From Ignicoccus islandicus DSM 13165 (GTDB lineage: Archaea > Thermoproteota > Thermoprotei_A > Sulfolobales > Ignicoccaceae): DNA of 32,000 nucleotides. The stretch covers positions 300,001 through 332,000 of the forward strand of contig NZ_CP006867.1 in NCBI RefSeq assembly GCF_001481685.1. The letters run 5' to 3'. The translations under genes and the position numbers were made by a program. The notes beneath the pieces were generated by a model. That model saw nothing but the letters and a program-made list of their open reading frames with translations, made no database searches and was not told the DNA's origin. How positions within the stretch are numbered: the first letter of the stretch is position 1; each line of letters begins with the position of its first letter. This document shows, piece by piece, positions 717 to 2,459 of the stretch.

Positions 717-749
717 TTGCTCCCCTCCCACTTCTGGGAGGATCATCGC
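717..749. repeat. Left terminal inverted repeat with an internal 7-bp hairpin
   Basis: CCTCCCA (724-730) pairs with TGGGAGG (735-741) across loop CTTC. Partner repeat at 2427-2459. Confidence 0.85.
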
Positions 750-1221
750 ATTCTCTCCACTCAACGCTCTACTATACCATTCCTCCTCGCGTCATTTCTT
801 TCTAACCCCGTATTGAGGGTAGTTACGTCGGAGCCTAAGTTACTTCTAACTCAGTAACATCTGCAAATTACTTTATTCGTATTAATACCATTAAATTAGT
901 CTTGAAAAACCAACTTACAGAAGCTATATTTAGCGAGCCCTAAACATAGGTATTACAATAGCTAGGTGTTACCAGGAAATTAGGTTCAAAGGATCTAGAT
1001 AATTTAGACAGCTAATCGAGCCTAAATCAAGGTTCGTAATATTAAAATAAGGCCTAATTCGGCACAACCTTCATGACGTGGAAGGGAACGCTTCAAACGA
1101 GTTCGAACTGATTAAGTGAATTGAATTTACTTCCGTACAGGGAGGTAATAAGGGCCTCCAAGGAGATGCAAATGTGATGGTGTACCGGGATAACACCGTT
1201 GATGGTAGAGTTAACGCCCAC

Positions 1222-1246
1222 TTAACTTTCCAGCTTGGAAAGTTAA
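1222..1246. other. Perfect 11-bp stem / 3-nt loop hairpin inside the ORF-free arm of the element
   Basis: TTAACTTTCCA gct TGGAAAGTTAA, read directly from the sequence. Confidence 0.8.
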
Positions 1247-1405
1247 CCTCCGGGATGGTTTGCTAGCGGTAATACGAGGAGATGTAAATGCCGATTGAAT
1301 CCGGGGGACCGGAACGGGTTTAGGATCTGTAAGGAACTGAGGTCTTGATCGATAGCTAGGCACATATTTATTATGAATTTCGGTGCTATAGTAGCTTGGG
1401 GTATA

Positions 1406-1449
1406 GCGCCCAGGTGGCTGCCAAACCTCGCGCCTGGGCGGCTGCCAAA
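1406..1449. repeat. Tandem 20-nt direct repeat (24-nt period) that can also fold as an 8-bp hairpin, just downstream of the DUF3800-like ORF stop on the minus strand
   Basis: GCGCCCAGGTGGCTGCCAAA (1406-1425) and GCGCCTGGGCGGCTGCCAAA (1430-1449) are 17/20 identical. CGCCCAGG (1407-1414) is the reverse complement of CCTGGGCG (1433-1440). Confidence 0.75.
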
Positions 1450-1456
1450 GCGTATC

Positions 1457-2314
1457 TCAACACGCCCTTCCAATTACCTCACATAGCTCTCCAACAAAGT
1501 TGCTCGTTAAATCGAAGCCCCTTGCGAAAGCTAGCTTCTCCTTAAGGCGCTCATTGCGATGCAATAGGGCGTTCCTATAGCTCCCAGCTAACACGTCTAC
1601 AATAGCGAACGGTAGAGCGTGATGCGACTTCACTTCCATCGCATCTACAACTTTATAACATTGGAAGCGTCTCTTAGGTAGTTCCCTATCGCTTATGCCT
1701 CTCCAAGAGAAGAACTTTTCATCAAACAAGACGAGCGCGTCTTCGATCAACGAGTTACAAAGCTCCGTCTTAACGTTATTAAACACGTAAGGCTTCATGG
1801 TCTTCGATAAGGCCTCTCTTAACGGCTCGGAGAATTCGCCTAAACCCTTCAAGAACTTAGCTATCTCTGCTTTGTTAACGTAATGAATTAAGGCTCTCAT
1901 GGAACTACACGTACGAAGTGAAGTAACTACGTCGAAGAACTTCCCGAGGGCTTCATCTATTGCTTCGTTCACTTCCTTCGTTTCGGTACCCTTAAAGCAC
2001 TTAACGAGTTCGCCCGTTAAGGAGTTATACTTCAATTCAATGCCTCCTTCAATCATCTTCTTAATGATGTCTTCGCACCCTACTACTGAAGCCATCTCCT
2101 CGAAAGCCCTTACTAACTCTCGTGAAAGCTCTGAATAGCACTTGGGTGAGAGTATTAATGTTGCTATTAGGAAGTACTTGGTTTTCTTACCACCTTTCTT
2201 TAAATTAACGTTCGTATCTCCGCTCTCATCTAGCAGAACTACCTCCAACTTTTCGATCCCGATGGTCCTCGGAACGCTTAGGTATTTCTCTAGGATTACT
2301 TCCGTTTCACACAC
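1457..2314 (-). CDS. DUF3800-like protein, the only ORF inside the inverted-repeat-bounded segment
   Basis: 285-aa ORF. N-terminal EVVLLDESGDT followed by YFLIATLILSP, and C-terminal LPFAIVDVLAGSYRNAL, resemble the DESG and xxADxxAG motifs of DUF3800 as I remember them. GTG start at 2314; a TTG at 2248 would give MEVVLLDESGD, a typical DUF3800 N-terminus. It also contains RNALLH, which fits an Rx4H pattern. Confidence 0.55.
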   Translation of the reverse strand: MCETEVILEKYLSVPRTIGIEKLEVVLLDESGDTNVNLKKGGKKTKYFLIATLILSPKCYSELSRELVRAFEEMASVVGCEDIIKKMIEGGIELKYNSLTGELVKCFKGTETKEVNEAIDEALGKFFDVVTSLRTCSSMRALIHYVNKAEIAKFLKGLGEFSEPLREALSKTMKPYVFNNVKTELCNSLIEDALVLFDEKFFSWRGISDRELPKRRFQCYKVVDAMEVKSHHALPFAIVDVLAGSYRNALLHRNERLKEKLAFARGFDLTSNFVGELCEVIGRAC

Positions 2315-2426
2315 TAACTACCTCGTTTCCTATCACTTAGCCGTTTGTGATCTAAGGAATTGACGGGTGTTGTAAAGTGAAGGTTATACGGAAGGTGTAG
2401 TGAGGCATCGCTAGGAGGGTTTCATA

Positions 2427-2459
2427 GCGATGATCCTCCCAAAAGCGGGAGGGGAGCAA
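2427..2459. repeat. Right terminal inverted repeat with an internal hairpin
   Basis: GCGATGATCCTCCCAAAAGCGGGAGGGGAGCAA. The two differences from the left copy fall in the hairpin loop and at the loop-closing pair (A-T becomes G-T), so the hairpin is kept. Confidence 0.85.

What the first reader, a model, noticed from the sequence alone, without database searches (positions are those of the whole stretch)
717..2459. 1.74-kb segment with hairpin-containing 33-bp inverted termini, directly after the cmr3 stop, carrying a DUF3800-like gene instead of a recognisable transposase
Seen directly: 717-749 and the reverse complement of 2427-2459 match at 31/33 positions. Each terminus contains a 7-bp stem (CCTCCCA/TGGGAGG). 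The two substitutions fall in the loop and at the loop-closing pair (A-T becomes G-T), so the structure is conserved rather than only the sequence. The left terminus begins on the base after the cmr3 TAA. The only ORF inside has DESG and ADxxAG-like motifs (DUF3800-like); I see no DDE, HUH, serine/tyrosine recombinase or TnpB signatures. Inference: this is either (a) an insertion element mobilised by an unclassified enzyme, (b) a non-autonomous cassette moved in trans, (c) an invertible segment, or (d) an accessory cassette of the type III-B locus. Options a and d would be new as far as I know.
Basis: partly seen in the sequence, partly recalled or inferred. Interest (0 to 1): 0.75.

Follow-up and report, generated by a model that had tools for sequence, protein, structure and literature searches.

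The report
Hairpin-bounded DUF3800 nuclease–RNA cassette
Next to the type III CRISPR genes of the archaeon Ignicoccus islandicus lies a 1.7-kb unit, conserved across the genus, made of a predicted RNase H-like nuclease gene, about 700 bases of conserved non-coding sequence that looks like a structured RNA, and a matching hairpin signal at each end; its function is unknown and I found no evidence that it currently moves.

Summary
Positions 717-749 and 2427-2459 form a 33-nt inverted repeat (31/33), each arm carries a GC-rich hairpin, and the left arm starts on the base after the cmr3 stop. The window is Ignicoccus islandicus.

The enclosed gene (1457-2248, minus strand) belongs to a tiny, divergent DUF3800 subfamily. 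Its model has an RNase HII-like fold.

They match no Rfam family.

The same unit occurs in I. hospitalis and in a related MAG. In all three it is bracketed by inward-facing "hairpin + TCATC" motifs. One I. hospitalis stem has a completely different sequence but still pairs, so the local hairpin is what is conserved, not arm-to-arm pairing.

All three copies lie beside type III CRISPR genes (cmr3, csx1, a CARF ring-nuclease-like gene), in otherwise different flanks.

I saw no second copy, no inversion and no excision. The closest cmr3 relative lacks the whole 714-3720 region, not just the cassette.

Best reading: a new archaeal variant of the known but unexplained DUF3800-plus-RNA pairing, probably a CRISPR/defence accessory. 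A relic or novel mobile element is not excluded.

The parts
717..749 (+). Terminal motif at the gene-distal end, read inward on the + strand: 7 nt, a hairpin (stem 724-730/735-741, loop CTTC), then ATCATCGC with TCATC at 743-747. It starts on the base after the cmr3 TAA.
   Evidence: Homologous motifs are in L022 (2937-2914, minus strand) and I. hospitalis L019 (11502-11480, minus strand); the latter has the fully compensated stem GCCCGCC/GGCGGGC.
750..811 (.). Degenerate inner extension of the terminal repeat (CTACTATACC..TTCC..TCATTTCT). It shows that the ancestral repeat arms were about 70-100 nt long.
   Evidence: window 811-719 matches L022 2848-2942 (68% over 96 nt), and window 789-721 matches the upstream arm of I. 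hospitalis (L019 9823-9894) in inverted orientation (70% over 74 nt).
971..1045 (-). Weakly conserved non-coding block that includes the palindromic TAATATTAC motif.
   Evidence: (67% over 78 nt against L022, E=0.003; 15/15 nt against I. hospitalis) and the alignment.
1110..1250 (-). Conserved non-coding block B2 (GGTTAACTTTCC..GGAAAGTTAAG..GTTAACTC..CCTTGGAG..TTCAATTCAC). It has a 10-bp stem-loop carrying compensatory changes. The strand of any RNA product is unresolved.
   Evidence: 69% over 143 nt against I. hospitalis, E=3e-13, which is higher than the identity of the neighbouring coding DNA; the stem AACTTTCC/GGAAAGTT becomes AACTCTAC/GTGGAGTT. No reading frame is conserved. No Rfam match.
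1406..1449 (-). Conserved block B1, immediately after the stop codon. It holds two direct copies of TGGCAGCY-R-CC-NN-GGCGC (1406-1425 and 1430-1449) whose GC cores pair with each other.
   Evidence: It is near-invariant in four genomes, and two pairs covary: CCCAGG/CCTGGG in I. islandicus, CCCGGG/CCCGGG in I. hospitalis and L022, CCGGGG/CCCCGG in L024.
1457..2248 (-). Gene for a divergent DUF3800-family protein with a predicted RNase H2-like nuclease fold (EYM_01785). The probable TTG start is at 2248; the longest ORF extends to 2314.
   Evidence: 5 of 5 family members hit DUF3800, best E=5e-7. The model has pLDDT 80.6. Its top PDB matches are RNase HII, and its top viral match is a DUF3800 protein, E=1e-7.
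2281..2303 (-). Conserved AGTAAT(T)YCTA element about 35-55 nt upstream of the start codon. It is a possible archaeal promoter; this is inference only.
   Evidence: Alignment; the sequence is read.
2427..2459 (-). Terminal motif at the gene-proximal end, read inward on the minus strand: hairpin CCTCCCG/CTTT/TGGGAGG (2452-2435) followed by ATCATCGC. The TCATC is the reverse complement of 2429-2433.
   Evidence: Homologues are at L022 1105-1127 and L019 9826-9850.

Best explanation
The segment is a self-contained DUF3800 module that is inherited as a unit in the Ignicoccus lineage. It has three parts. The first is a gene for a divergent DUF3800 protein with an RNase H2-like nuclease fold. The second is about 700 nt of ORF-free DNA directly after the gene, with conserved blocks (B1, B2) that behave like a structured RNA or single-stranded DNA. 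The third is a pair of inward-facing copies of the signal 'GC-rich hairpin followed by TCATC(GC)', one at each boundary. Proposed mechanism: the nuclease and the adjacent RNA are expressed together and act as a protein-RNA pair, as has been suggested for the eleven other RNA motifs found beside DUF3800 genes. The pair probably serves as an accessory to type III CRISPR immunity or to the surrounding defence island. The hairpin+TCATC signals would be read locally on a single strand, as boundary, processing or binding sites. They are not arms that pair with each other. Shown here: the anatomy, conservation as a unit, compensatory changes, the fold, and the CRISPR neighbourhood. Inferred: transcription, the protein-RNA partnership, and the defence role.
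For: Family and fold: all five family members hit Pfam DUF3800. The AF2 model (pLDDT 80.6, pTM 0.83) matches archaeal and human RNase HII/H2 and a viral DUF3800 protein (E=1e-7). This agrees with the published description of DUF3800 (PMC7736814, PMC10910872). Conserved non-coding part: B2 is 69% identical over 143 nt between I. islandicus and I. hospitalis, while the proteins are only 40% identical. B1 is near-invariant in four genomes. Stems carry compensatory changes, and no reading frame is conserved. Known precedent: DUF3800 genes are accompanied by structured RNAs, on either side and in either orientation (PMC5737381). Boundaries: a generic search for hairpin+TCATC finds exactly the two cassette ends in each of three genomes, against 0.14-0.2 expected per locus. 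One I. hospitalis stem is rewritten by four double changes and still pairs. Context: the neighbours are cmr3, a Csx1 HEPN C-terminus carrying the RNFLAH motif and a Cas_APE2256/ring-nuclease-like CARF protein. DUF3800 is already a known accessory of class 2 CRISPR loci (PMC12669027).
Against: There is no expression data, so an RNA product is not demonstrated. The strand cannot be assigned: RNAalifold energies are similar on both strands (-22.3 vs -19.0 for B2, -18.2 vs -22.3 for B1). G+C of the non-coding part is only about 0.43, which is low for a stable RNA in an organism that grows near 90 C; the tRNA in the window is 0.72. Only three or four sequences are available, so the covariation is anecdotal. 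Two more distant relatives (L024, L048) show no cas genes and no hairpin ends on their short contigs. The CRISPR association could simply reflect co-residence in a variable island. The role of the hairpins is not established.
Confidence: 0.5

Rival explanations
1. It is an autonomous insertion element of a new kind. The hairpin-bearing inverted repeats are transposon ends, the RNase H-fold DUF3800 protein is the transposase, and the conserved non-coding region might supply an RNA cofactor, by analogy with IS110 bridge RNA or TnpB omega-RNA.
For: The terminal inverted repeats were ancestrally about 70-100 nt long. Homology between three species ends at the repeats, and the immediate flanks all differ: cmr3, csx1, and a pilin-like ORF that reads through the terminus. 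An RNase H-like fold is the fold used by DDE/DEDD transposases. The order of nuclease gene, 3' structured non-coding region and element end resembles TnpB and IS1111 elements (my own knowledge).
Against: One copy per genome as far as could be seen. There is no other copy in the window, and assemblies run straight through both ends. The genome-collection scan found no related site, although it did not return the window's own copies either, so the I. islandicus genome was probably masked or absent. There is no target-site duplication. The 'empty' relative L049 lacks 714-3720, not 717-2459. Copies differ by 50-60% at the protein level, which points to old vertical descent. No transposase domain is detected, and no DUF3800 protein is known to transpose DNA.
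Confidence: 0.12
2. It is a non-autonomous or now-immobile relic cassette. It was once moved in trans, or shuffled as a defence-island module, and the repeats are leftover ends.
For: The same discrete unit appears in three different flanks. In I. hospitalis the neighbouring ORF runs into the terminus. The cmr3-to-tRNA-Gly interval is variable between relatives.
Against: Leftover ends would decay. Instead, the hairpin is maintained by compensatory changes and TCATC is invariant in all six arms, which argues for a current function. No candidate mobilising enzyme lies nearby.
Confidence: 0.15
3. The two 33-nt arms pair with each other in one long transcript. The resulting processing stem would allow the enclosed RNA to be excised or circularised, as with archaeal rRNA processing stems.
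For: On the minus-strand (gene-sense) transcript the two mismatches become G.U pairs, which gives an uninterrupted 33-bp stem (read directly).
Against: In I. hospitalis the two arms have unrelated stem sequences (CCCCTCCCC versus GCCCGCC), so only about 5 bp (TCATC/GATGA) could pair, yet each local hairpin is kept. There is no bulge-helix-bulge motif. The conserved promoter-like element lies inside the upstream arm.
Confidence: 0.05
4. It is an invertible DNA segment that switches expression of the gene or RNA.
For: It has near-perfect inverted repeats flanking a gene.
Against: No serine or tyrosine recombinase lies in or near the segment. All independent assemblies of I. islandicus (one contig is seen in 9 samples) and of I. 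hospitalis have the same orientation, and their contigs cross both arms. The orientation relative to the CRISPR-side neighbour is the same in I. islandicus and L022.
Confidence: 0.02

Closest known systems
DUF3800 genes with adjacent structured RNA motifs (DUF3800-I to DUF3800-XI; Weinberg et al. 2017, PMC5737381)
   Same: A DUF3800 gene lies directly next to a conserved, ORF-free stretch whose stems show covariation. The function is unknown in both cases.
   Different: None of the Rfam models matches, even at E<=5, so this would be a twelfth, archaeal motif. Here the gene and the RNA-like region are also bracketed by inverted hairpin+TCATC signals and sit in type III CRISPR neighbourhoods. 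The main text of that paper reports neither feature; its supplement was not available.
DUF3800 as an RNase H-fold accessory of CRISPR loci (TPR-DUF3800 with Cas12a2/Cas12a3, type VI-F; PMC10910872, PMC12669027) and of type VII retrons (PMC7736814)
   Same: The same protein family and predicted RNase H2-like fold, and the gene sits beside CRISPR-Cas genes.
   Different: The published cases are bacterial class 2 loci or retrons, often with a TPR fusion. This case is a stand-alone protein in a crenarchaeon, next to type III (class 1) components, with its own RNA-like region and hairpin boundaries.
RNase HII / RNase H2 (for example T. kodakarensis 2dff, A. fulgidus 3p83, human 3puf)
   Same: These are the best structural matches (probability about 1.0, TM 0.40-0.53). 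The N-terminal DESG motif resembles the RNase HII DEAG motif (the resemblance is from my own knowledge).
   Different: Sequence identity is 8-12%. There is no sequence-level match to any solved structure. The protein has extra helices, and the catalytic set has not been verified.
REP sequences flanking RAYT genes; IS200/IS605 TnpB with omega-RNA; IS110/IS1111 with bridge RNA (comparison from my own knowledge)
   Same: These are single genes flanked by hairpin-forming repeats in inverted orientation (RAYT), or an RNase H-fold enzyme gene followed by a structured non-coding region that runs to the element end (TnpB, IS1111).
   Different: No HUH/Y1, TnpB or IS110 domain is present. No dispersed repeat copies were seen. 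There is no evidence of transposition.

Membership tests
DUF3800 (Pfam PF12686) | A match to the family HMM at the curated threshold. | tested here: inconclusive
   The window protein scores 18.1 bits against a cut-off of 21 (E=0.0047). However, all 5 members of its small family hit DUF3800 as the top family, best E=5e-7, and two relatives carry a precomputed PF12686 hit.
DUF3800 (Pfam PF12686) | An N-terminal DE motif and a C-terminal QxxD motif (as described in PMC7736814). | tested here: inconclusive
   D29-E30 within LLDESGD is invariant. The C-terminal aspartate in (A/L)xVDxLA is conserved in the four full-length members, but the glutamine is not (AIVD, AAVD, ALAD, FLVD). The retron-linked DUF3800 proteins also lack this Q (PMC7736814).
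DUF3800 (Pfam PF12686) | An RNase H2-like fold. | tested here: met
   AF2 model with pLDDT 80.6. Foldseek top PDB hits are RNase HII and H2A. The top BFVD hit is a DUF3800 protein, E=9.6e-8.
Rfam DUF3800-I to -XI RNA motifs | A match to one of the covariance models. | tested here: not met
   No hit at E<=5 in the window (600-2950), in the I. hospitalis locus or in the MAG loci.
Rfam DUF3800-I to -XI RNA motifs | A conserved structured element adjacent to a DUF3800 gene. | tested here: met
   Blocks B1 and B2 are conserved and carry compensatory pairs. Statistical power is low, with 3-4 sequences.
Insertion sequence / transposon | Terminal inverted repeats. | tested here: met
Insertion sequence / transposon | Target-site duplication. 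| tested here: not met
   The flanks are ..TTTGACTAA| and |GGACGTTAG.., with no direct repeat. The same is true in L022 and I. hospitalis.
Insertion sequence / transposon | Several copies, or a repeat-precise empty site. | tested here: not met
   No other copy is in the window or in the fetched loci. Assemblies are unbroken across the ends. L049 lacks 714-3720 rather than 717-2459. The whole-genome check is inconclusive, because the collection scan did not return even the window's own copies.
Insertion sequence / transposon | A recognisable transposase. | tested here: not met
   Only DUF3800 is detected.
CRISPR-Cas accessory (type III-linked) gene | Recurrent adjacency to type III genes in independent contexts. 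| tested here: met
   Three of three loci with readable flanks: cmr3, csx1 and a Cas_APE2256/ring-nuclease-like gene. All three are from one genus-level lineage, and the two more distant relatives sit on short contigs without cas genes.
CRISPR-Cas accessory (type III-linked) gene | Functional dependence on the CRISPR system. | not testable with these tools
   This needs genetics or biochemistry.
Invertible segment | A nearby site-specific recombinase, and both orientations observed. | tested here: not met
Solitary or degenerate CRISPR repeats | Similarity to a CRISPR repeat of the same genome. | tested here: not met
   The local array repeat is GTAGA(G/A)TCCCAATAGGGAATAGAAAG, which is unrelated to the arms. 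The arms share only the general layout of a stem plus an 8-nt tail.

The most novel reading that the evidence does not exclude
The hairpin-bounded DUF3800 cassette is a previously unrecognised class of RNA-associated genetic element. In this reading, an RNase H-fold enzyme uses the RNA encoded beside it, together with the hairpin+TCATC ends, either to move the cassette or to cut nucleic acids in an RNA-directed way, analogous to TnpB/omega-RNA or IS110/bridge RNA. The cassette would have been recruited repeatedly next to type III CRISPR genes. If true, this would also explain why eleven unrelated RNA motifs accompany DUF3800 genes elsewhere.
Probability: 0.1. Interest if true: 0.9.

Novelty: new variant of a known kind. 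Interest (0 to 1): 0.5.

Why it matters
Nobody knows why DUF3800 nucleases travel with structured RNAs. The authors who described the eleven motifs called the pattern remarkable and offered no hypothesis (PMC5737381). This Ignicoccus cassette adds an archaeal example with three useful properties. It has sharply defined ends marked by a conserved hairpin signal. It has a compact RNA-like region with covarying stems. It also has a consistent link to type III CRISPR components: an effector subunit, a cOA-activated RNase and a ring-nuclease-like protein. These properties make a small, well-bounded unit for testing what the protein binds and cuts, and whether DUF3800 modules are accessories of class 1 as well as class 2 CRISPR systems. 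The caveat is that the evidence rests on three or four genomes of one lineage and includes no expression data.

Tried and rejected
1. Extra copies of the termini. A scan of genome contigs with GCTCCCCTCCCNNNNNNGGGAGGAT gave only 14 chance hits in GC-rich bacteria and haloarchaea. It did not return the window's own copies, so it is uninformative for I. islandicus itself.
2. Relatives in the phage and plasmid collections: none.
3. Protein relatives in JGI metagenomes, using a peptide pattern from the family alignment: none confirmed.
4. More instances of block B1, using a two-copy DNA pattern in metagenome and viral contigs. The 22 metagenome hits were all tandem repeats in 56-76% GC bacterial DNA with no DUF3800 relative nearby, and there were no viral hits.
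5. Known RNA families: nothing relevant in Rfam, even at E<=5.
6. A decayed gene or small ORF in 750-1456: several frames on both strands score alike and no frame stays open, so the region is non-coding.
7. Single-sequence structure prediction was useless (pLDDT 43.6). Sequence searches of the PDB gave nothing.
8. Assigning the RNA strand from G.U versus A.C pairs and alifold energies: undecided.
9. The arms as CRISPR repeats: rejected against the local array.
10. The arms as one long RNA stem: rejected by the I. hospitalis arms.
11. A weaker inverted pairing between 1100-1358 and 2659-2716 (E about 0.4) is treated as chance.
12. The supplement of PMC5737381, which holds details of the DUF3800 motifs, is not held.
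Full report
**Identity of the window and check of the observation**

The ORF inside the segment is 100% identical to EYM_01785 of Ignicoccus islandicus DSM 13165. The inverted repeat is real. Its arms are 717-749 and 2427-2459, 33 nt each, matching at 31 of 33 positions. 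They are the only two matches in 32 kb even when three mismatches are allowed, and none of 100 shuffles produced a match. No other inverted repeat in the window comes close.

Each arm contains a GC-rich hairpin. The two differences lie in the loop and at the loop-closing pair. The left arm begins on the base after the TAA of a complete cmr3 gene. From a longer contig of the same genome, the upstream operon reads RAMP, Cmr5, RAMP, Cas10/Cmr2, Cmr3. The segment therefore follows the last gene of a type III-B operon.

**The protein**

A full HMMER scan of 1.8 billion representative proteins found only four relatives, at 51, 40, 37 and 32% identity. One of them is WP_011998701 of I. hospitalis. 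The relatives start at residue 23 of the window ORF, so the real start is probably the TTG at 2248.

All five members hit Pfam DUF3800 as their best family (best E=5e-7). The window protein itself falls just under the curated cut-off. With the five-sequence alignment, AlphaFold gave a usable model (pLDDT 80.6, pTM 0.83). The single-sequence model had been poor.

The best PDB matches are archaeal RNase HII and human RNase H2A (probability 0.87-1.0, TM up to 0.53). The best viral match is a phage DUF3800 protein (E=9.6e-8). This agrees with published descriptions of DUF3800 as an RNase H2-like fold with an N-terminal DE motif (PMC7736814, PMC10910872). I found no transposase, recombinase, TnpB or known defence-system domain.

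Positions 750-1456 have no ORF longer than 76 codons. That is unusual in a 1.39-Mb genome. This DNA is nevertheless conserved between species whose DUF3800 proteins are only 40-51% identical.

- Against a MAG contig (L022), homology runs from the start codon through the stop and on to window 1115. It then resumes at 1045-971 and at 811-719.
- Against I. hospitalis, block B2 (window 1248-1110) is 69% identical over 143 nt (E=3e-13). That is better than the adjoining coding DNA.
- Block B1 (1406-1449) lies directly after the stop codon. It holds two direct copies of TGGCAGCY-R-CC-NN-GGCGC and is nearly invariant in four genomes.

The GC cores of the two B1 copies pair with each other, and two of those pairs covary: CCCAGG/CCTGGG, CCCGGG/CCCGGG and CCGGGG/CCCCGG. 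B2 contains a 10-bp stem with two compensatory pairs, AACTTTCC/GGAAAGTT versus AACTCTAC/GTGGAGTT.

Translations in several frames on both strands score alike, and no frame stays open, so the conservation is not protein-coding. No Rfam family matches in any of the loci, including the eleven DUF3800-associated motifs, even at E<=5.

I could not assign a strand, because consensus folding energies are similar both ways. G+C of the region is about 0.43. That is low for a stable RNA in a hyperthermophile and counts against the RNA reading.

**The ends**

A generic search asked for a perfect 6-8-bp hairpin with a 3-7-nt loop, followed within 2 nt by TCATC. It finds exactly two sites in each of three genomes, one at each end of the unit, facing inward on opposite strands:

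- I. islandicus: 724-747 (+) and 2452-2429 (-)
- I. hospitalis (L019): 9826-9850 (+) and 11502-11480 (-)
- L022: 1105-1127 (+) and 2937-2914 (-)

Shuffles predict 0.14-0.2 such sites per locus. TCATC is invariant in all six arms.

The downstream I. hospitalis stem is GCCCGCC/GGCGGGC instead of CCTCCCA/TGGGAGG. That is four double substitutions with pairing intact. Selection therefore acts on each local hairpin. It does not act on pairing between the two arms, because in I. hospitalis the arms could pair over only about 5 bp.

The similarity between arms, and between species, extends about 70-100 nt inward in degenerate form. The ancestral repeats were therefore longer than 33 nt. Homology between species stops at the outer edge of the hairpins.

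**Context and mobility**

The three copies have different immediate flanks, but each has a type III CRISPR gene close by.

- In I. islandicus, the cmr3 stop abuts the unit.
- In L022, a Csx1 HEPN C-terminus (RNFLAH motif) ends 28 nt from it.
- In I. hospitalis, a Cas_APE2256 CARF protein with ring-nuclease similarity lies about 600 nt (one small ORF) from one end. At the other end a pilin-like ORF reads through the terminal hairpin (..VRPPRGGLI*).

Two more distant relatives sit on short contigs. They have neither cas genes nor the hairpin ends, and the better-sampled one (L024) retains B1.

I found no second copy of the termini or of the cassette. The scan of the genome collection gave only chance hits. 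It did not return the window's own copies either, so it says little about I. islandicus itself.

Independent assemblies of both species are identical across the unit, run through both ends and show one orientation. This argues against recent duplication, excision or inversion.

The closest cmr3 relative available (58% identity, L049) goes from the cmr3 stop to tRNA-Gly in about 90 nt. Its homology to the window stops at 713 and resumes at 3721. The difference is therefore the whole 3-kb interval: the cassette, 455 nt of ORF-free DNA and two small beta-propeller-like ORFs. It is not a repeat-precise empty site. Two further cmr3 loci carry unrelated genes downstream. No target-site duplication is visible.

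**Interpretation**

The best-supported reading (confidence about 0.5) is a self-contained DUF3800 module: an RNase H2-like nuclease, an adjacent structured RNA-like region and hairpin+TCATC boundary signals. It is kept as a unit in the Ignicoccus lineage and linked to type III CRISPR neighbourhoods.

This is a new variant of something already in the literature. DUF3800 genes are known to be accompanied by eleven unrelated structured RNA motifs of unknown function (PMC5737381). DUF3800 is also a reported accessory of type V-A2 and VI-F CRISPR loci and of type VII retrons (PMC10910872, PMC12669027, PMC7736814).

What appears to be new:

- an RNA-like element that matches no known model;
- the inverted hairpin boundaries;
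- the association with class 1 (type III) components in an archaeon.

The partnership between protein and RNA, its transcription and any defence role are inferences.

The rivals are as follows:

- An autonomous element of a new kind (0.12) or a relic or trans-mobilised cassette (0.15). Both draw on the discrete unit found in different flanks. Single copy, old divergence, the lack of a target duplication and the imprecise empty site weaken both.
- A long RNA processing stem (0.05), contradicted by the I. hospitalis arms.
- An invertible segment (0.02), which has no support.

**Verdict**

It is neither a demonstrated mobile element nor wholly new. Interest is moderate (0.5). It offers a compact, well-bounded example for attacking the open DUF3800-RNA question, and it extends DUF3800 to type III CRISPR contexts. 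The evidence rests on three or four genomes and includes no expression data.

Noticed in passing
window 714-3720; L049 5160-5250: The whole interval between the cmr3 stop and tRNA-Gly(GCC) at 3771-3849 is absent from the closest cmr3 relative, where about 90 nt separate the two genes. The interval holds the cassette, 455 ORF-free nt and two small ORFs. It therefore looks like a variable insertion or deletion hot spot next to a tRNA gene.
   Followed up: partly
window 2915-3310 and 3300-3725: Two ORFs of 131 and 141 aa overlap by 11 nt in different frames and give weak beta-propeller hits. They may be one frameshifted gene. No relatives were found in any fetched locus.
   Followed up: partly
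window 2682-2730: A long imperfect hairpin (outer stem AGAAGTGAGA/TCTCACTTCT) lies in the ORF-free stretch 2460-2914, just outside the cassette. It surfaced only as weak miRNA-model hits. Part of it (GTGAATTGA on the minus strand) is complementary to the invariant TCAATTCAC of block B2, which may be chance.
   Followed up: no
window 24147-24517: A small CRISPR array of six repeats (about GTAGA(G/A)TCCCAATAGGGAATAGAAAG, spacing 64-69 nt) sits among housekeeping genes (PurT-like 21730-22956, TmcA 24768-27206). The listed ORF 24130-24540 on the minus strand is an artefact of the array.
   Followed up: partly
window 23663-23690 (+): This is the only other 'perfect hairpin + TCATC' site in the window (ATTCACCA/TGGTGAAT stem, AT-rich). 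It lies about 460 nt from the CRISPR array and is probably chance.
   Followed up: no
window ~3790; L001-L003 and L049 contig ends: Independent short-read assemblies of I. islandicus and of a related metagenomic organism all break inside the tRNA-Gly gene. The likely cause is that the tRNA sequence is shared between co-occurring genomes or is followed by strain-variable DNA.
   Followed up: no
window 717-749 and 2427-2459: Each arm has the layout of a hairpin-type CRISPR repeat: 7 nt, a 7-bp stem with a 4-nt loop, then exactly 8 nt (ATCATCGC) to the inner edge of the repeat. The sequence is unrelated to the local CRISPR repeat.
   Followed up: partly
L019 11477-12283 (-), I. hospitalis: A pilin-like ORF with an N-terminal hydrophobic signal ends inside the cassette terminus. 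Its last nine codons are encoded by the hairpin and the TCATC motif, with the stop codon immediately after. In one sample (L021) the same gene is split by a single-base indel.
   Followed up: partly
L001 9801-10259 (upstream of the window, same genome): A small adenosine-deaminase-domain ORF (about 150 aa) lies at the head of the cmr operon.
   Followed up: no
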